Below, one piece after another: positions 1-5,725 of a DNA stretch of 64,000 bases. The first letter of the stretch is position 1, and each line of letters starts with the position of its first letter. The DNA comes from Naegleria gruberi. Taxonomy: Eukaryota. The position numbers and the translations under genes are program-made. The stretch lies in assembly GCA_000004985.1 (NCBI GenBank), contig GG738852.1; one strand, 5' to 3'. The notes under the pieces are model-generated. The model was not told the DNA's origin and did not search any database. It worked only from the letters and a program-made list of their open reading frames with translations.

Positions 1-1
1 G

Positions 2-239
2 GGAAACTGTAAAGTTTTTACACGAGTCTAAGAATTCCCTCCAAGAATTGGAGAGGAGATTGAGATCATCATTCGGATTTAAAGTTGCATTTATTTCGGG
101 ATTTGTTCTTCTTGGATATTTACCATATGAAATTAGAAAAGTTGTTTCCGAAAAACAACCATCAATTATTTCGCTCACCAACAAGACATTAGCAAGAAGT
201 GAAGAAAGGAAACAAACTTTAAAGAATATGTTTGATTAA
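2..239 (+). CDS. 3' end of a gene that starts upstream of the window (partial CDS, unknown product)
   Basis: Frame 2 is open from the window edge to TAA at 237-239; ORF-track 48..239 is its tail. It has a hydrophobic segment (AFISGFVLLGYLPY). No recognisable family. Confidence 0.3.
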   Translation, partial: ETVKFLHESKNSLQELERRLRSSFGFKVAFISGFVLLGYLPYEIRKVVSEKQPSIISLTNKTLARSEERKQTLKNMFD

Positions 240-526
240 TTTATTAATTTAAATTAATTATCGGAGATGATAATAAAATTTCGAAGAGTCATGAGATTCT
301 TGGAAGGCAAAAAGATGATATTATAAAAACTAATTTCATTATTATTTAAATATTAACATGTTAATTATTGTGAACTAAAAGTTTTCAAGAAGGACTAAAT
401 GAGAGAATAGAGAAAGCATTAAACACACAATTAATCCACCCTACCATTTCTCCTACTATCAATACAAATGATAAAAAGCCGCTAATAACAACATTTTTGG
501 ACCATATGCTCTCTTATTGAATCTAC

Positions 527-3500
527 ATGAAGAAACATCAATGCATTAAAAATATAATAACAATAGAAAAAAATATTGCAACAATGTCCACTCAACCAAA
601 GACACTCACTGTTGGTCTCTTCCCATATCTTCCTTCTTGGAATGAAAATGGCAACGAAGTTAAATTGATCAATTTGATCAAGGATGTTTTGCCAACTCAG
701 GTTTCCGGATATAATATCGAATATACCGAATTTGATTGTTACAGTGATGCTAGTCTTCAAAGTCTTCCAGATGTTTTCTCAACTGATAGCATTTTCCTTC
801 CATATCTTGTTTCTTTGGGTGGTGTCAAGAGTTTGGATGAATCATTGGTTCGTGGTGTTACTGGTGATTTGCATAGTTTTGTTTCCTCAAGTGCCTCTGT
901 CAATGGTTCCGTTTATGGTTTCCCACAATACTTGTGCTCAAACTTTTTATTGTCCTCACCAAATGCTACTCAACAAGCATCTTCCCTTTTAGAATTGGCT
1001 CAAAAGGTTGGTTATGAACAAATTGTTTATCCAGATGTTGCCTCTTCTAGTTCTTTCACAGTTTTCGGATTGTATCAACAATTACTCCAATCATCATCAT
1101 CAGCTGCAGTTGATATCAAGGCCTCTGATCTTCCACAATCTGGTGACCAAGTCAACAAGGATATCACTCAAAAATATAGAACCATTTTGGATTCAACAGT
1201 TGTTGCCTCTCAAAGAGAATATATTAACTCTGTAAAGCAAGGTAAACCAATTTCAAACTACTATGTCGGATATAGTGAAAGTATGTGTGAAATTAAGGAT
1301 ATCATCAGAGATCAACAATACAATGTTCAACTCATTGGTACCTCTGATAAGCCATACGTTTATACTGATGTTTTGGCTTTGAATTCCAATTTGTGTGATG
1401 AAAAGCAAAAGGTTGCTGTTGAAGTTATCAAGAATTTATTGACTAATACTTTAGTTTTGGACTTGTTGGGTCTCGGATTAACTCTCCCAGCCAACAAGAA
1501 TGGTATTGCTCATTTGGCTAAATCATCAAACTTTTATGCTCAATTGAGCCAACAATTCGATGCCAAGGAAAGTGAAGTTAGAGTTTTGAGATGTGTTGAC
1601 TTTGCTAACAAGGAAGTTAAGAATTGTGCTGGTGTCTTGAGACCATTCCTTCAACATATTGCTGTTGCTACTTTGCGTTGTTTGACTGCTGACACTGTCG
1701 AAAAGGCTAAGAGTGGTCACCCTGGTATGCCAATTGGTATGTCACCAATTGCCTATGTTTTGTGGAAGTTCTTCTTCAAATCATCTAAGGATGATGTCAA
1801 TTGGTTGAACAGAGATAGATTTGTTTTGAGTAATGGTCACGGTTGTACATTGCTTTATGCCATGTTGCACCTCACTGATTGTAACTTGAGTTTGGATGAT
1901 CTCAAGAATTTCAGAAGTTTGCATTCCAAGACTCCTGGTCACCCAGAATATGGTCACACTGAAGGTGTTGATGCTACTACTGGTCCATTGGGTCAAGGTG
2001 TTTGTAATGCTATTGGTATGGCTCTCTCTGAAGCTCACTTGGCTGCTCGTTTCAATAAGGATGGACAAAATATCTTTGATCACCACACCTATGTTTTCCT
2101 TGGTGATGGTTGTTTGATGGAAGGTGTTGCTATGGAAGGTCTCTCATTTGCTGGTCACCAAAAGTTGAACAAGTTGATTGTTTTCTATGATGACAATAGT
2201 ATTACTATTGATGGTAAGACTGAATTGACCTTTACTCAAAATACTCCAGAAGTCATGAGAGGTTTTGGATGGCACGTAATTGTTGTCGACAAGGCTGATA
2301 ATGACTTGGTTGGTATTAAGGAAGCTATTTTGGAAGCTCACACTGTTACTGACAAGCCAATCATGATCGTTTGTAAGACTACAATTGGTTATTCCTCAAA
2401 GGTTCAAGGTACTGCTAAGGTTCACGGTTCTCCATTGGGTGCTGATGGATTGAAGAATTTGAAGGAAACTTGTGGTTTCACTGGTAATGATTTCTTCCAT
2501 GTTCCAGAAATTGTCAGAAAGGACTTTGCTACTGTCATTAATAGAAATAGTGAAAAGCTCTCTCAATGGAAGCAAGTTAAATCTGCCTATGATACCACTC
2601 ATGCTACTGAATCCCAACTCCTCCAAAGAATGATTAATCACGAATTGGAAGGTGATGTTATGGAAAAGTTGCCAAAATACCTCGAACAAAAGAAGATTGC
2701 TACCAGATCTACATCTCAACAAGTTTTGAATGCCATCTATCCACTCATTCCTTCTCTCGTTGGTGGTTCAGCTGACTTGACTCCATCCAACTTGACTGAT
2801 GTAACTGGATGTCAAGATTTCCAACCAAACAATAGAGTTGGTAGATATATCAGATTTGGTGTCCGTGAACATGCCATGGTTGCTATTGCCAATGGTATTC
2901 TCTATCATGGTGTTCTTAGAACCTATGTTGGTACATTCTTGAACTTTGCTTCATATGCTTTGGGTGCTATCAGATTGAGTGCCTTGTCTGGTCTTCCAAA
3001 TATTTATGTTTTCACTCATGACAGTATTGGTCTTGGTCAAGATGGTCCAACTCACCAACCTGTTGAAGTTTTACCAATGTTGAGAGCCATTCCAAATCAC
3101 ATTGTTTTCAGACCTGCTGATGGTAGAGAAACCAGTGGTGCTTATTTGTGGGCTGTTCAATCAAAGAAGACTCCATCCTCAATGATTCTTTCTCGTCAAG
3201 ATTTGCCACAATTGACTGGTACTGATATTTCAAAGGTTGCTTTGGGTGCCTATGTTATTCAAGGTGATGCTACTCCTGATGTTGTCCTTGTTGGTACTGG
3301 TTCTGAAGTTTCCCTCATGGTTGAAGCTGCTGAAAAGTTGAAGGCTAACCTTAAGGTTAACGTTGTTTCCATGCCAAGTTGGGAATTGTTTGTTCGTCAA
3401 TCAGAAGAATACAGGAAGACTGTCTTCCCAGATGGTATTCCAGTTGTCAGTGCCGAAGCTTCATCAACCTTTGGTTGGACAAGCTTTGCTCACTATGCTG

Positions 3501-3661
3501 TTGGTATGACTACTTTCGGTGCTAGTGCTGCTGCTGAAGAAGTTTACAAACTCCTCAAGATTACCTCAGACAATGTTGCTGAAAAGGCCACCAAATTGGT
3601 TACCAAGTATGGTAAGCAAGCTCCAAGACTCAGCTTGTCTCTTGTTGGTGAAGAACTCTAA
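527..3661 (+). CDS. tkt: Transketolase (TPP-dependent) carrying a ~370-aa N-terminal extension of unknown affinity
   Basis: 1044-aa single ORF. Residues ~375-1044 align end to end with yeast/bacterial transketolase (TADTVEKAKSGHPG, GDGCLMEG, THDSIGLGQDGPTHQP, C-terminal domain). ATG at 527; a second in-frame ATG at 584 (acaATGtcc) is an equally plausible start. Residues ~20-375 are not transketolase-like. Confidence 0.88.
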   Translation: MKKHQCIKNIITIEKNIATMSTQPKTLTVGLFPYLPSWNENGNEVKLINLIKDVLPTQVSGYNIEYTEFDCYSDASLQSLPDVFSTDSIFLPYLVSLGGVKSLDESLVRGVTGDLHSFVSSSASVNGSVYGFPQYLCSNFLLSSPNATQQASSLLELAQKVGYEQIVYPDVASSSSFTVFGLYQQLLQSSSSAAVDIKASDLPQSGDQVNKDITQKYRTILDSTVVASQREYINSVKQGKPISNYYVGYSESMCEIKDIIRDQQYNVQLIGTSDKPYVYTDVLALNSNLCDEKQKVAVEVIKNLLTNTLVLDLLGLGLTLPANKNGIAHLAKSSNFYAQLSQQFDAKESEVRVLRCVDFANKEVKNCAGVLRPFLQHIAVATLRCLTADTVEKAKSGHPGMPIGMSPIAYVLWKFFFKSSKDDVNWLNRDRFVLSNGHGCTLLYAMLHLTDCNLSLDDLKNFRSLHSKTPGHPEYGHTEGVDATTGPLGQGVCNAIGMALSEAHLAARFNKDGQNIFDHHTYVFLGDGCLMEGVAMEGLSFAGHQKLNKLIVFYDDNSITIDGKTELTFTQNTPEVMRGFGWHVIVVDKADNDLVGIKEAILEAHTVTDKPIMIVCKTTIGYSSKVQGTAKVHGSPLGADGLKNLKETCGFTGNDFFHVPEIVRKDFATVINRNSEKLSQWKQVKSAYDTTHATESQLLQRMINHELEGDVMEKLPKYLEQKKIATRSTSQQVLNAIYPLIPSLVGGSADLTPSNLTDVTGCQDFQPNNRVGRYIRFGVREHAMVAIANGILYHGVLRTYVGTFLNFASYALGAIRLSALSGLPNIYVFTHDSIGLGQDGPTHQPVEVLPMLRAIPNHIVFRPADGRETSGAYLWAVQSKKTPSSMILSRQDLPQLTGTDISKVALGAYVIQGDATPDVVLVGTGSEVSLMVEAAEKLKANLKVNVVSMPSWELFVRQSEEYRKTVFPDGIPVVSAEASSTFGWTSFAHYAVGMTTFGASAAAEEVYKLLKITSDNVAEKATKLVTKYGKQAPRLSLSLVGEEL

Positions 3662-3880
3662 ATCTTTTACAATACATTTTAATTTATATTCAAACATGCA
3701 CCTTTCTTTAATTGAGATTTGTTTCAATTTTTAATTGATTCAGTCATCTGTATTTTGGAAATTTGACAGTGTGCAAAATTTAATTTGCAATTTTAAAATA
3801 AAAATAACAAAACTTTTTAACGGTAAAAAACAGCACCAACACACAATAACTATTCGTCTTGGAACAATATCATCAACATT

Positions 3881-5725
3881 ATGTCCCTCGCCGATCAATT
3901 ATTGGAAAAGACCAAGCAACAAAAACTACGTTCGGCCTCAGCGTTTGCTCCGAACTTTAAAAAACCAAATATTGGAGGTGGAGCTGCTTCATCAACCCCC
4001 TCCAAAAGTAATAATACCAATAATAATAACAACAACAATAATAATAATACCACTGGACAAACGGAAGCCCATAATGAAGCATCGGCGATTGGCTCTGGAA
4101 GTGCACTCCTCTCTGTACCACCAACTTTGTCTCTGAGTTTCAATCCCACTCAAGATAATCCATTGGATCAATCCCTGTTGAGTACAACTTCATCCACCTC
4201 AATAATACAAGAGAGAGGTACAACATCCAATTCTACAATTGTTGGTGGCGATGATAATAATAATAATGCAATAACTGCACCATCATCATCCGATGATAAC
4301 AACACAAAGAAGGATAAAAGGAAAACCAAAACATCATCACGAGAAAAGAAGAGAAGGAGAAAAATCATTTATTCTGATGATGAAGATGATGAATATGTGG
4401 AACCTCCTCAAGATGACAATGAAGAGGATGCCATTTCAACCACCTCTGCCATGACAGCCACCTCCTCCAAATCAGCAACCAGTTCAAAGACTAAAAGACT
4501 CAAAAAACCAACAGGTGATTTTAAAACAATTTCGGATTTCATTCGGGATGCCATCTTGAATGACTATGAATCAGAAAATACCAATATTAATAATAACAAT
4601 AATAGATCTAATATGAATAATAATTCTTCAGCACAACAGAATGGAATTAGTGCTGATGAATTTATTAATGAAGAGGATGAATTTGAAATTGAAAATGATG
4701 ATCAATATAAGGATAGAGTACATCAAATTGAAATGGAGGATGATGAGAAGGATGATGAGAATGTTAATTCGGATAATATTTCTGCTGTGAGTGGAAAATC
4801 TTCCTACAAGAATTTTGTGGAAGTGAAAGCTCCATCAATTATTCCTCCTAATCCATATAAACCTGCAGATAATAATAGTGAATTTGATGATGATTATGAA
4901 CAGGATTTGGATTCAGAATTTGGAGATTTGGAGAAACCAGCAGGTGGTCCATCAGTTTTCTCATTCGATAGTGATGGTAACATTTTAATGAAACCAACTG
5001 AAACTGATGAAGCTTTAATCCCTTTCATGGAATCTGGAAGACAGGAATTTAACTATTCCAGAGCTATGAGATTGGCCAATCTTGATACCAATAAACCAGT
5101 CACTCAAGCCACCTATGCCAGAAAGGGAAAGGGAGAAAGATGGACAAAGGATGATTTGGAATTATTCTACGATGGTTTAAGACAATTTGGTACAGATTTT
5201 TCAATGATTTCTCGATTGTTCCCAAAGAGAACGAGAAGAGAAATTCATCAAAAGTACAAGAATGAAGAAAAGAAGAATAAGAAAAAGATTGAATTTGCAC
5301 TCAAGAATAGAGCTCCAATAGACATGACACTATTCCAAAAAAAGAGCAAGGAAAAAGATAAGATTCAAGGTATTACCAGAAAGAAGGTCACTAAAACAAC
5401 CTCAGAAGGTGCATCCAATAGTGAAAACAATGAAGATGAATGGAAAGAAGTCACAAGCTCCTCAAAGACTACCTCCAGTTATGAGCAGGCAATTGATGAC
5501 GAGTTTGAGGAAGACGAATTTGATATCGATGATTATGATCCTGAAGAAGATGAAAAGAAATACGAAAGACCTGTGTCAAAGCCTCAATCTTCAACGGCTA
5601 GCTCTGCAACCAATGCTAATAATAACCAGGATGAATTTGAGGAAGTTGAAGGCAATGAAGAAGATGAAACCTTTGACAATTTTGGAAATAATGTTTTGGG
5701 TAGAGGTGAAGATGAGTTTGAATAA
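3881..5725 (+). CDS. TFIIIB B'' subunit Bdp1-like protein (extended SANT domain), with poly-Asn and acidic tracts
   Basis: ATG at 3881, 614 aa. The SANT core WTKDDLELFYDGLRQFGTDFSMISRLFPKRTRREIHQKYKNEEKKN matches the Bdp1 signature (GTDFSMI..LFP.R.R.EI..K.K.EEK.N). There is a 12xAsn run near the N-terminus. Confidence 0.7.
   Translation: MSLADQLLEKTKQQKLRSASAFAPNFKKPNIGGGAASSTPSKSNNTNNNNNNNNNNTTGQTEAHNEASAIGSGSALLSVPPTLSLSFNPTQDNPLDQSLLSTTSSTSIIQERGTTSNSTIVGGDDNNNNAITAPSSSDDNNTKKDKRKTKTSSREKKRRRKIIYSDDEDDEYVEPPQDDNEEDAISTTSAMTATSSKSATSSKTKRLKKPTGDFKTISDFIRDAILNDYESENTNINNNNNRSNMNNNSSAQQNGISADEFINEEDEFEIENDDQYKDRVHQIEMEDDEKDDENVNSDNISAVSGKSSYKNFVEVKAPSIIPPNPYKPADNNSEFDDDYEQDLDSEFGDLEKPAGGPSVFSFDSDGNILMKPTETDEALIPFMESGRQEFNYSRAMRLANLDTNKPVTQATYARKGKGERWTKDDLELFYDGLRQFGTDFSMISRLFPKRTRREIHQKYKNEEKKNKKKIEFALKNRAPIDMTLFQKKSKEKDKIQGITRKKVTKTTSEGASNSENNEDEWKEVTSSSKTTSSYEQAIDDEFEEDEFDIDDYDPEEDEKKYERPVSKPQSSTASSATNANNNQDEFEEVEGNEEDETFDNFGNNVLGRGEDEFE
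4009..4056 (+). repeat. (AAT/AAC)n trinucleotide tract encoding a poly-Asn run inside the Bdp1-like gene
   Basis: aataataataccaataataataacaacaacaataataataat is translated as NNTNNNNNNNNNNNNT. Confidence 0.6.

What the first reader, a model, noticed from the sequence alone, without database searches (positions are those of the whole stretch)
527..1700. Transketolase carries an in-frame ~370-aa N-terminal domain with no transketolase homology
Transketolase proper starts near residue 375 (TADTVEKAKSGHPG) and is colinear with yeast and bacterial enzymes to the stop. Upstream of it lie about 370 residues (TLTVGLFPYLPSWNENG...GLGLTLPANKNG...) in the same ORF with no stop or obvious intron. The region has alpha/beta character and could be a periplasmic-binding-protein-like fold. 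I considered an NMT1/THI5-type (thiamine-pyrimidine) relationship, which would be striking on a TPP enzyme, but the THI5 CCCFC motif is absent. So the domain is unidentified. It could be a genuine fusion, a regulatory or targeting domain, or two genes whose boundary hides a missed intron or stop.
Basis: partly seen in the sequence, partly recalled or inferred. Interest (0 to 1): 0.5.

Follow-up and report, generated by a model that had tools for sequence, protein, structure and literature searches.

The report
Thiaminase I fused to transketolase (Naegleria)
The "unidentified" front end of this transketolase gene is the already crystallised thiaminase I of the amoeba Naegleria gruberi. It is genuinely fused, with no linker, to a complete transketolase, so a vitamin-B1-destroying enzyme sits on a vitamin-B1-dependent one.

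Summary
One uninterrupted ORF (527-3661, + strand) carries about 356 non-transketolase residues in front of a complete transketolase (TK).

The domain is not unidentified. Residues 20-375 are 100% identical to PDB 4HCW/4HCY, "thiaminase-I" of Naegleria gruberi. The 1025-aa product starting at ATG 584 is exactly XP_002680761.1 / D2V4Z5_NAEGR, annotated only as "transketolase".

The fusion is real:
- An independent assembly has the same ORF.
- TK homology starts at the residue right after the last residue of the crystallised thiaminase, so there is no linker.
- No usable start codon exists for a separate TK.
- The same architecture and junction motif occur in N. fowleri, N. lovaniensis, Willaertia magna and an unidentified protist clade. 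In that clade, poly(A)-tailed 3.25-kb mRNA contigs encode the whole fusion.
- The fused TKs form one clade.

The thiaminase catalytic Cys/Glu/Asp and 13 of 13 TK catalytic residues are intact here. The Cys is lost in Willaertia, in a second Naegleria paralogue and in the unknown clade, so the fusion is kept even where thiaminase chemistry is probably dead.

The reason for the fusion is inferred, not shown. Verdict: known protein, known domain and a real fusion whose biology looks unexplored in the searchable literature.

The parts
527..583 (+). In-frame upstream extension of the ORF (19 codons, MKKHQCIKNIITIEKNIAT). Most likely 5' UTR rather than coding sequence.
   Evidence: GC3 is 0.16 here against 0.30-0.32 in the CDS. 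The public protein XP_002680761.1 and the orthologues start at MS(T/Q)QP.
584..1651 (+). Thiaminase I domain: residues 1-356 counted from ATG 584, or ORF residues 20-375. About 39.1 kDa, with no signal peptide.
   Evidence: 100% identical to PDB 4HCW/4HCY 'thiaminase-I'. Pfam PF22156 Thiaminase_I-like_N at 260 bits against a cutoff of 27. TIGR04541 thiaminase_BcmE at E 1e-22, below its equivalog cutoff. Bacterial thiaminases 4KYS and 2THI match at E about 1e-14. Molecular weight.
935..937 (+). Codon TGC for Cys118 (numbering from ATG 584). It corresponds to the catalytic nucleophile Cys113 of Paenibacillus (Bacillus) thiaminolyticus thiaminase I.
   Evidence: It aligns with the Cys at chain position 113 of 2THI (my count on the alignment). 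It is conserved in all six bacterial homologues aligned and in the Naegleria paralogue-1 clade. Sequence read.
1277..1279 (+). Codon GAA for Glu232, in the motif GYSESM. It corresponds to Glu241 of the bacterial enzyme.
   Evidence: Alignments; sequence read.
1367..1369 (+). Codon GAT for Asp262, in the motif YTD. It corresponds to Asp272 of the bacterial enzyme.
   Evidence: Alignments; sequence read.
1649..1654 (+). Fusion junction: Leu (the last residue of the crystallised thiaminase) followed directly by Gln (the first residue aligning to transketolase). There is no linker and no GT splice donor at this point.
   Evidence: PDB chain 4HCW ends at ORF residue 375. Yeast TK alignment begins at ORF residue 376. 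The junction motif (L/I)(R/K)P(F/Y/H)(L/I/V)QH is shared by the paralogue-1, Willaertia and unknown-clade fusions and by the 682-aa N. gruberi TK; paralogue 2 has a diverged form, ILRHRLHH. In the AF2 model, helix 342-355 is followed by a 3-residue break and helix 359-375, with pLDDT 93-97.
1652..3658 (+). Complete transketolase, about 73.1 kDa. Transketolase_N spans 1658-2647, Transket_pyr 2690-3208 and Transketolase_C_1 3245-3565.
   Evidence: Pfam E-values of 1.7e-129, 3.5e-50 and 2.5e-33. 689 bits against yeast TKL1 1GPU, colinear with yeast residues 8-667 and with all 13 catalytic or cofactor residues checked conserved. The AF2 model superposes on TK structures at TMt 0.95. Molecular weight.
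3659..3661 (+). Stop codon of the fused gene.

Best explanation
The window comes from Naegleria gruberi. The gene at 584-3661 encodes one 1025-aa, 112-kDa cytosolic polypeptide made of two enzymes joined head to tail without a linker. The N-terminal part is thiaminase I (EC 2.5.1.2), which has a periplasmic-binding-protein-type fold and an intact Cys118/Glu232/Asp262 active site. This is the very domain whose crystal structure is deposited as 4HCW/4HCY. The C-terminal part is a complete, catalytically intact transketolase.

Shown: the domain identities, the continuity of the ORF, the conserved junction, and conservation of the fusion across Heterolobosea.

Inferred:
(a) The protein is made and works as a fusion. 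The transketolase half would dimerise as all transketolases do, giving a roughly 224-kDa dimer with two thiaminase lobes rigidly packed on it.
(b) The fusion arose once. A bacterial-type secreted thiaminase I lost its signal peptide and was joined to the host TK in an ancestor of Naegleria, Willaertia and an unidentified protist clade, and the gene then duplicated.
(c) The physiological logic is a Rosetta-stone link within thiamin metabolism. The thiaminase half would cleave thiamin or thiamin analogues next to a major ThDP-consuming enzyme, either for pyrimidine salvage or for removal of antivitamins.

Most relatives have lost the catalytic Cys but keep the domain. The fusion must therefore also serve a non-catalytic, structural or ligand-binding role for the transketolase.
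For: Identity:
- Residues 20-375 are 100% identical to 4HCW/4HCY thiaminase-I.
- The exact 1025-aa sequence is XP_002680761.1 / EFC48017.1 / D2V4Z5_NAEGR, 'transketolase [Naegleria gruberi]'.
- Pfam finds PF22156 plus three TK domains.

Intact enzymes:
- Cys, Glu and Asp align with bacterial C113, E241 and D272.
- Yeast TK residues H30, H69, H103, D157, N187, H263, R359, S386, E418, H469, D477, H481 and R528 are all conserved.

Fusion is real:
- An independent assembly gives the identical ORF.
- TK homology begins at the residue after the last crystallised residue.
- The first in-frame Met codons after the junction lie inside GHPGMPIGM, which is too late for an active TK.
- GC3 is continuous across the junction, 0.30 against 0.32.
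- Fused orthologues exist in N. fowleri (1020 aa), N. lovaniensis (1020 aa) and Willaertia magna (1003 aa, a single uninterrupted genomic ORF). There is a second fused paralogue in N. fowleri (1067 aa) and N. lovaniensis (1039 aa), plus unnamed proteins of 987-1064 aa.
- In the distant clade, about 3.25-kb contigs from several samples carry a 5' UTR, the whole fused ORF, an AATAAA signal and a poly(A) tail.
- An NJ tree puts all fused TKs in one clade.
- The full-length AF2 model has pLDDT 92.2 and pTM 0.91, with a well-ordered junction.

No signal peptide: the eukaryotic proteins begin directly at the first beta-strand, whereas the bacterial homologues carry hydrophobic leaders.
Against: - No transcript or protein data for N. 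gruberi itself could be obtained. No RNA-derived contig is on record.
- The crystallised construct stops exactly at the junction. This could mean that the native protein is processed there, or only that the authors trimmed it. The paper (Kreinbring et al. 2014, PNAS) is not in the held library.
- N. gruberi also has a 682-aa TK without the domain (P0083), so the fusion is not required for TK function.
- The catalytic Cys is replaced by Ser, Gln or Ala in Willaertia, in paralogue 2 and in the unknown clade. This weakens any explanation that depends on thiaminase catalysis being the reason for the fusion.
- The inter-domain packing is a prediction from only about 9 fused sequences in the alignment.
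- The NJ tree has no bootstrap support.
Confidence: 0.88

Rival explanations
1. Precursor model. The gene is translated as one chain and then cut at or near Leu356|Gln357 into a free 39-kDa thiaminase I and a free 73-kDa transketolase. The fusion would then only ensure co-expression.
For: The deposited crystallographic chain ends exactly at the domain boundary. The two halves differ in predicted pI, 4.9 against 6.6.
Against: There is no linker or loop to cut. The AF2 model gives helix, a 3-residue break, then helix, at pLDDT 93-97 across the junction. The junction residues are conserved as part of both folds. No protease site is evident. N. gruberi's stand-alone TK (P0083) still carries the last residues of the thiaminase helix (MSNILKPHLQH), which suggests those residues belong to the TK-side packing.
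Confidence: 0.1
2. The N-terminal domain is kept mainly as a non-catalytic module of the transketolase, acting as a structural brace or a thiamin/analogue-binding sensor. On this view, thiaminase activity in the Naegleria paralogue-1 clade is an ancestral leftover rather than the reason for the fusion.
For: The catalytic Cys is lost in three separate branches: Willaertia has Ser, paralogue 2 has Gln, and the unknown clade has Ala or Ser. The Glu is also lost (to Gln) in the unknown clade, and the Asp is lost (to Ser) in paralogue 2. All of these still keep a full-length domain and the same junction. The high pTM of 0.91 suggests a fixed domain arrangement.
Against: In N. gruberi, N. fowleri, N. 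lovaniensis and P0077 the full Cys/Glu/Asp set is conserved. From my memory of Kreinbring et al. 2014, the isolated domain is an active thiaminase I. N. gruberi's second TK appears to do without the domain.
Confidence: 0.3
3. Artefact: two adjacent genes, thiaminase and transketolase, wrongly joined because of a missed intron, a missed stop or an assembly error.
For: One N. fowleri annotation does split the locus into FDP41_007799 (393 aa) and FDP41_007798 (599 aa).
Against: That split is caused by a frameshift about 20 codons after the junction. The 393-aa model reads through ...LRPYLQHIAVATLRCLTADTVEK and then goes out of frame, and the 599-aa model lacks the GHPG region. Two other N. fowleri assemblies give the intact 1020-aa ORF. 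The N. gruberi ORF is identical in two assemblies. The fused ORF is conserved in Willaertia and in a second paralogue. Poly(A)+ mRNA contigs carry the whole fusion in a distant relative. No ATG is available for a separate TK.
Confidence: 0.02
4. The N-terminal domain is an NMT1/THI5-type pyrimidine (HMP-P) synthase.
For: Both families have periplasmic-binding-protein-like folds and act on the thiamin pyrimidine (general knowledge).
Against: No NMT1/THI5 Pfam hit appears even at E<=1, while Thiaminase_I-like_N scores 260 bits. The domain is identical to a solved thiaminase I.
Confidence: 0.01

Closest known systems
Naegleria gruberi thiaminase I, PDB 4HCW / 4HCY (Kreinbring et al., PNAS 2014; cited from memory and from the reference list shown)
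   Same: Identical sequence over all 356 residues. This is the same gene, with the same Cys/Glu/Asp active site.
   Different: The solved protein is only the first 356 residues of a 1025-aa gene product. No PDB chain covers both halves (best TMq 0.63). I could not check whether the paper discusses the transketolase half.
Bacterial thiaminase I (Paenibacillus thiaminolyticus 2THI/3THI/4THI; Clostridium botulinum BcmE 4KYS; TIGR04541)
   Same: Homologous along most of the domain (E about 1e-14 to the PDB chains; 1e-22 to TIGR04541). The catalytic Cys, Glu and Asp columns are conserved.
   Different: The bacterial enzymes are stand-alone, about 380-430 aa, and carry N-terminal secretion leaders. 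Identity is only 24-31%. The score is below the BcmE equivalog cutoff, 80.6 against 175 bits.
Canonical eukaryotic transketolase (yeast TKL1, 1GPU/1TRK; Leishmania 1R9J)
   Same: The C-terminal 669 residues are colinear, about 49% identical, with all 13 catalytic or cofactor residues checked conserved. The model superposes at TMt 0.95.
   Different: It carries a 356-residue enzyme on its N-terminus with no linker, and it lacks its own start codon.
Yeast THI20/THI21: HMP(-P) kinase fused to a TenA-type thiaminase II (from general knowledge, not tested here)
   Same: A thiamin-cleaving domain fused to another enzyme of thiamin metabolism. The usual interpretation is salvage of the pyrimidine moiety.
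   Different: That is thiaminase II (TenA fold, hydrolytic), not thiaminase I (PBP fold, Cys nucleophile). Its partner is a biosynthetic kinase, not a ThDP-dependent enzyme.
Fused thiaminase-like/transketolase proteins of other Heterolobosea: N. fowleri CAG4713849.1 and FDP41_009844, N. lovaniensis C9374_007041 and C9374_010042, Willaertia magna ABK040_002245
   Same: Same architecture and a single TK clade. Willaertia and the paralogue-1 proteins also share the junction motif; paralogue 2 (FDP41_009844, C9374_010042) has a diverged form, ILRHRLHH.
   Different: Only the Naegleria paralogue-1 clade keeps the catalytic Cys. Willaertia has Ser and paralogue 2 has Gln.

Membership tests
Thiaminase I (EC 2.5.1.2) | Sequence match to a curated family model above its cutoff | tested here: met
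   PF22156 Thiaminase_I-like_N scores 260.2 bits against a cutoff of 27, E 5e-78.
Thiaminase I (EC 2.5.1.2) | Equivalog of bacterial BcmE-type thiamine pyridinylase (TIGR04541 cutoff) | tested here: not met
   80.6 bits against a cutoff of 175, although E is 1e-22 over model positions 26-366. It is a divergent eukaryotic branch, not a BcmE equivalog.
Thiaminase I (EC 2.5.1.2) | Periplasmic-binding-protein-type two-lobe fold, shown by a solved structure | tested here: met
   100% identity to PDB 4HCW/4HCY chains named thiaminase-I. The homologues also hit SBP_bac_1 and SBP_bac_8.
Thiaminase I (EC 2.5.1.2) | Catalytic Cys nucleophile (C113 of the P. thiaminolyticus enzyme) | tested here: met
   Cys118 (nt 935-937) aligns with chain position 113 of 2THI. 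The same column is Cys in all six bacterial homologues aligned.
Thiaminase I (EC 2.5.1.2) | Active-site acid/base residues (bacterial E241 and D272) | tested here: met
   Glu232 in GYSESM and Asp262 in YTD align with bacterial E241 and D272.
Thiaminase I (EC 2.5.1.2) | Base-exchange cleavage of thiamin, measured as enzyme activity | not testable with these tools
   Reported for the isolated domain by Kreinbring et al. 2014 (from memory; the paper is not held). Other papers cite N. gruberi as a confirmed thiaminase I producer.
Transketolase (EC 2.2.1.1) | Three TK domains (N/ThDP-binding, pyrimidine-binding, C-terminal) in order and above cutoffs | tested here: met
   PF00456 scores 432 bits, PF02779 170.5 bits and PF22613 115.1 bits.
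Transketolase (EC 2.2.1.1) | Cofactor, metal and substrate residues (yeast H30, H69, H103, D157, N187, H263, R359, S386, E418, H469, D477, H481, R528) | tested here: met
   All 13 are identical in the residue-by-residue alignment to 1GPU (positions counted from the printed alignment).
Transketolase (EC 2.2.1.1) | Homodimer with active sites at the interface; measured activity | not testable with these tools
   Only a monomer model was made.
   No such hit at E<=1 in the Pfam scan of residues 1-378.
Heterolobosean thiaminase-like/transketolase fusion clade | Same domain order, linker-less junction motif ...(R/K)P(F/Y/H)(L/I/V)QH..., and TK part inside one clade | tested here: met
   Alignment, NJ tree and domain scans.

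The most novel reading that the evidence does not exclude
The thiaminase-I-fold domain is an ancient, obligatory accessory module of heterolobosean transketolases, and its conserved job is not thiamin destruction. In most lineages it would be a pseudo-enzyme that braces the TK or senses or hands over thiamin-type ligands. Only the Naegleria paralogue-1 clade would keep real thiaminase chemistry, possibly to destroy thiamin antivitamins or to recycle the pyrimidine right at a ThDP enzyme. That would be a new kind of cofactor-linked regulation or proofreading of a central pentose-phosphate enzyme. It might also explain why eukaryotic thiaminase I activities were historically reported at about 100 kDa.
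Probability: 0.25. Interest if true: 0.6.

Novelty: already known. Interest (0 to 1): 0.35.

Why it matters
Thiaminase I is a long-standing puzzle: why would a cell make an enzyme that destroys an essential vitamin? Its one confirmed eukaryotic example is this gene. In the genome that enzyme is the N-terminus of a transketolase, a ThDP-dependent enzyme. The fusion is conserved across Naegleria, including the pathogen N. fowleri, and Willaertia, even where the catalytic cysteine has been lost. This gives a concrete, testable link between thiaminase I and ThDP-enzyme function.

For genome annotation, the practical points are smaller:
- The product named "transketolase" is bifunctional.
- The split N. 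fowleri models FDP41_007799 and FDP41_007798 are a frameshift artefact.
- The domain itself and the gene model are already public, so this is not a discovery of a new domain.

Tried and rejected
- The search for homologous proteins with the N-domain alone and with an 8-sequence N-domain alignment returned no hits. The full-length query found all the fused relatives. I treat this as a limit of the word index, not as absence of relatives.
- The exhaustive representative search recovered the relatives, but without names.
- Kreinbring et al. 2014 and Sannino et al. 2018 are not in the held library. I therefore could not check whether the authors discuss the TK half or why their construct ends at the junction.
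- Seven full-text searches found no paper describing a thiaminase-transketolase fusion.
- The look-up of encoding contigs has no record for the 1025-aa product or for the 682-aa second TK. I could not get N. gruberi transcript contigs, nor look upstream of the second TK.
- The afdb50 fold library was unavailable.
- Model coordinates are not exposed, so I could not measure the inter-domain interface or the distance between the two active sites.
- THI5/NMT1 identity was rejected.
- A hidden intron or two separate genes was rejected.
- The Pythium 1034-aa TK (P0098) turned out to have an unrelated C-terminal extension, not this fusion.
Full report
**1. Observation**

The window has one + strand ORF at 527..3661 (1044 aa). 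Pfam finds the three transketolase domains at ORF residues 378-707, 722-894 and 907-1013. The alignment to yeast transketolase (PDB 1GPU) runs from ORF residue 376 to near the C-terminus, covering yeast residues 8-667 at 689 bits.

The likely true start is ATG 584 (MSTQPK...), for three reasons:
- The public protein and all orthologues begin there.
- GC3 of the 19 upstream codons is 0.16, against 0.30 for the N-domain and 0.32 for the TK.
- GC content drops to about 0.27 upstream of 600.

An independently assembled ENA contig (L001) is 99.3% identical to window 1-4573 and gives the identical ORF. The open frame is not a sequencing error.

**2. What the N-terminal region is**

It is not unidentified.
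- A Pfam scan gives PF22156 "Thiaminase I-like, N-terminal domain" at E 5e-78.
- NCBIfam gives thiaminase_BcmE (thiamine pyridinylase) at E 1e-22 across nearly the whole model, though below the equivalog cutoff.
- ORF residues 20-375 are 100% identical, end to end, to PDB chains 4HCW/4HCY, "thiaminase-I". The cluster look-up assigns these to Naegleria gruberi.
- The 1025-aa product from ATG 584 is exactly XP_002680761.1 / EFC48017.1 / D2V4Z5_NAEGR, named only "transketolase [Naegleria gruberi]".

The window is therefore N. gruberi DNA, and both the gene model and the domain structure are already public.

Bacterial thiaminases I (C. botulinum 4KYS; P. thiaminolyticus 2THI/3THI/4THI) match at E about 1e-14. 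Counting positions in the printed 2THI alignment, the bacterial catalytic Cys113, Glu241 and Asp272 fall on conserved columns. (These residue roles come from established literature on the bacterial enzyme, cited from memory.) The columns correspond to Cys118, Glu232 and Asp262 of the Naegleria protein, numbered from ATG 584, at nt 935-937, 1277-1279 and 1367-1369.

Unlike the bacterial homologues, which carry hydrophobic secretion leaders, the Naegleria protein begins directly at the first strand of the fold. It is presumably intracellular; this is an inference.

**3. The transketolase half**

It is complete and looks active. Yeast residues H30, H69, H103, D157, N187, H263, R359, S386, E418, H469, D477, H481 and R528 are all identical in the alignment. 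A full-length AlphaFold2 model superposes on solved transketolases at TM 0.93-0.96, normalised to the target.

**4. Is the fusion real?**

Several independent lines say yes.
- (a) TK homology begins at the residue immediately after the last residue of the crystallised thiaminase (L375|Q376 in ORF numbering). There is no linker, no stop and no GT donor at that point.
- (b) The first in-frame Met codons after the junction lie inside the conserved GHPGMPIGM motif. A separately translated TK would lack its first helix and His30.
- (c) Codon composition is continuous across the junction.
- (d) The same architecture is present in several species:
  - N. fowleri CAG4713849.1 (1020 aa) and N. lovaniensis C9374_007041 (1020 aa);
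  - an unnamed ENA protein (1007 aa);
  - Willaertia magna ABK040_002245 (1003 aa), a single uninterrupted ORF in its genome;
  - a second, more divergent paralogue, N. fowleri FDP41_009844 (1067 aa) and N. lovaniensis C9374_010042 (1039 aa);
  - an unidentified eukaryotic clade (987-1064 aa).
- (e) The paralogue-1, Willaertia and unknown-clade proteins share the junction motif ...(R/K)P(F/Y/H)(L/I/V)QH(I/L/T)(A/S/T)VA...; paralogue 2 carries a diverged form, ILRHRLHHLAV.
- (f) In the unidentified clade, about 3.25-kb contigs recovered from many samples have a roughly 100-nt 5' UTR, the whole 998-aa fused ORF, an AATAAA signal and a poly(A) tail. These are mRNAs encoding the fusion.
- (g) An NJ tree of the TK halves places all fused proteins in one clade, apart from trypanosomatid, fungal, Nuclearia, oomycete and cyanobacterial TKs (no bootstrap). 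This is consistent with a single ancestral fusion followed by duplication.
- (h) The one annotation that splits the locus is N. fowleri FDP41_007799 (393 aa) plus FDP41_007798 (599 aa). The 393-aa model reads straight through the junction into the TK (…LRPYLQHIAVATLRCLTADTVEK) and then goes out of frame. The 599-aa model starts at an internal Met downstream of the GHPG region. Two other N. fowleri assemblies give the intact 1020-aa ORF. That split is a frameshift artefact.

**5. Structure of the fusion**

An AlphaFold2 model of the 1025-aa chain was built on a 52-sequence alignment, of which only about 9 sequences are fused. It has mean pLDDT 92.2 and pTM 0.91.

The junction is modelled as the last thiaminase helix (342-355), a three-residue break, and the first TK helix (359-375), at pLDDT 93-97. 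A pTM of 0.91 could not be reached if the 35% of the chain in the N-domain were placed arbitrarily. The prediction is therefore a fixed, packed arrangement rather than beads on a string. No PDB entry covers both halves (best query-normalised TM 0.63).

**6. An unexpected pattern**

In the alignment of all fused N-domains with six bacterial thiaminases, the catalytic residues are distributed as follows.

| Lineage | Cys (bacterial C113) | Glu (E241) | Asp (D272) |
|---|---|---|---|
| Naegleria paralogue-1 clade (N. gruberi, N. fowleri, N. lovaniensis, P0077) | Cys | Glu | Asp |
| Willaertia magna | Ser | Glu | Glu |
| Paralogue 2 (N. fowleri, N. lovaniensis) | Gln | Glu | Ser |
| Unidentified clade | Ala or Ser | Gln | Asp |

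Given the tree, this is at least three independent losses of the nucleophile with retention of a full-length domain and junction. The fusion is therefore maintained even where thiaminase chemistry is almost certainly gone.

N. gruberi itself has a second TK, modelled at 682 aa (P0083). It nests with paralogue 2 and begins MSNILKPHLQHIAV, that is, with the last residues of the thiaminase-like helix plus the junction. Either the domain was deleted there or the gene model is truncated. I could not reach that locus.

**7. How it most likely works**

Shown: one gene, two intact enzymes, no linker, and a conserved architecture.

Inferred:
- The protein functions as a 112-kDa bifunctional chain (39.1 + 73.1 kDa). 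It would dimerise through its TK half.
- The thiaminase half descends from a bacterial-type secreted thiaminase I that lost its leader.
- The functional rationale is a link within thiamin metabolism. Thiaminase I has been proposed to salvage precursors from thiamin and its analogues (Sannino et al. 2018, as summarised in PMC8068756). Placing that activity on a major ThDP enzyme could serve pyrimidine salvage or removal of antivitamins.
- Because the Cys-less relatives keep the domain, a non-catalytic role, structural or ligand-binding, must also exist.

I put about 0.88 on the identity and the real fusion. I put only about 0.25-0.3 on any specific physiological rationale.

**8. Rivals**

- Post-translational cleavage at the junction (about 0.1). 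It is suggested only by the crystallographic construct ending there, and it is disfavoured by the ordered, linker-less, conserved junction.
- A purely non-catalytic accessory role (about 0.3). This is not exclusive of the main explanation.
- A two-gene or intron artefact (about 0.02).
- A THI5/NMT1 identity (about 0.01).

**9. Novelty and literature**

The domain, its structure and the fused gene model are public, so I classify this as already known. Papers in the held library cite N. gruberi as the one confirmed eukaryotic thiaminase I producer. Seven full-text searches found none that mentions a transketolase fusion. The primary structure paper could not be read, so I cannot say whether its authors discuss the fusion.

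Two points may be new: the breadth of conservation of the fusion, and the repeated loss of the catalytic cysteine. They are modest in scope and rest on sequence analysis only.

Noticed in passing
not in the window: N. gruberi protein P0083 (682 aa, 'predicted protein', on a 260-kb scaffold): This second N. gruberi transketolase begins MSNILKPHLQHIAV, which is the tail of the thiaminase-like domain plus the junction motif. It nests with the fused paralogue 2 of N. fowleri and N. lovaniensis. Either the N-domain was deleted or the gene model is truncated.
   Followed up: partly
N. fowleri proteins P0063 and P0064 (FDP41_007799 and FDP41_007798); intact locus at L012:6001-9063 and L013:669-3731: The RefSeq-style N. 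fowleri annotation splits the fused gene into a 393-aa 'Thiaminase I-like N-terminal domain-containing protein' and a 599-aa 'transketolase'. The 393-aa model reads through the junction and then frameshifts. Two other assemblies have the intact 1020-aa ORF.
   Followed up: yes
L004-L009 (about 3.25-kb contigs; JGI samples 3300057245 and others) and L014 (10-kb genomic contig, SRR25336392): An unidentified eukaryotic clade expresses a 998-1064-aa fusion whose thiaminase-like domain lacks both the catalytic Cys and the Glu. The contigs carry AATAAA plus poly(A). The organism could not be named. L014 shows compact, apparently intron-poor genes, with Rpb6 and a DEAD-box helicase next door.
   Followed up: partly
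L002:3133-4406 and L003:3063-3943: Two contigs of that clade continue past the poly(A) site used in the other contigs and into a further ORF with no Pfam match. This may be read-through, genomic DNA or chimeric assembly.
   Followed up: no
window 3881-5725 (+): The next gene downstream encodes a 614-aa protein with a Myb_DNA-bind_7 (BDP1/TFIIIB B''-type) domain at aa 411-494, flanked by poly-Asn and long acidic low-complexity tracts.
   Followed up: partly
window 1-240 (+): The 3' end of an upstream gene appears to run into the window and stop at about 238 (…KNMFD*). The AT-rich region of about 345 nt between it and ATG 584 is the presumed promoter and 5' UTR of the fusion gene.
   Followed up: no
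N. fowleri paralogue 2, P0080 residues about 170-200: A low-complexity insert (…TSTTTTTTTTGGGGSGEKGD…) interrupts the thiaminase-like domain of FDP41_009844 relative to its N. lovaniensis orthologue. This is a further sign of relaxed constraint on that domain.
   Followed up: no
tool behaviour (against 34): The word-indexed protein search returned no hit for N-domain-only queries, even though the full-length query retrieved proteins containing that exact domain. Absence of hits from that tool should not be read as absence of relatives.
   Followed up: yes
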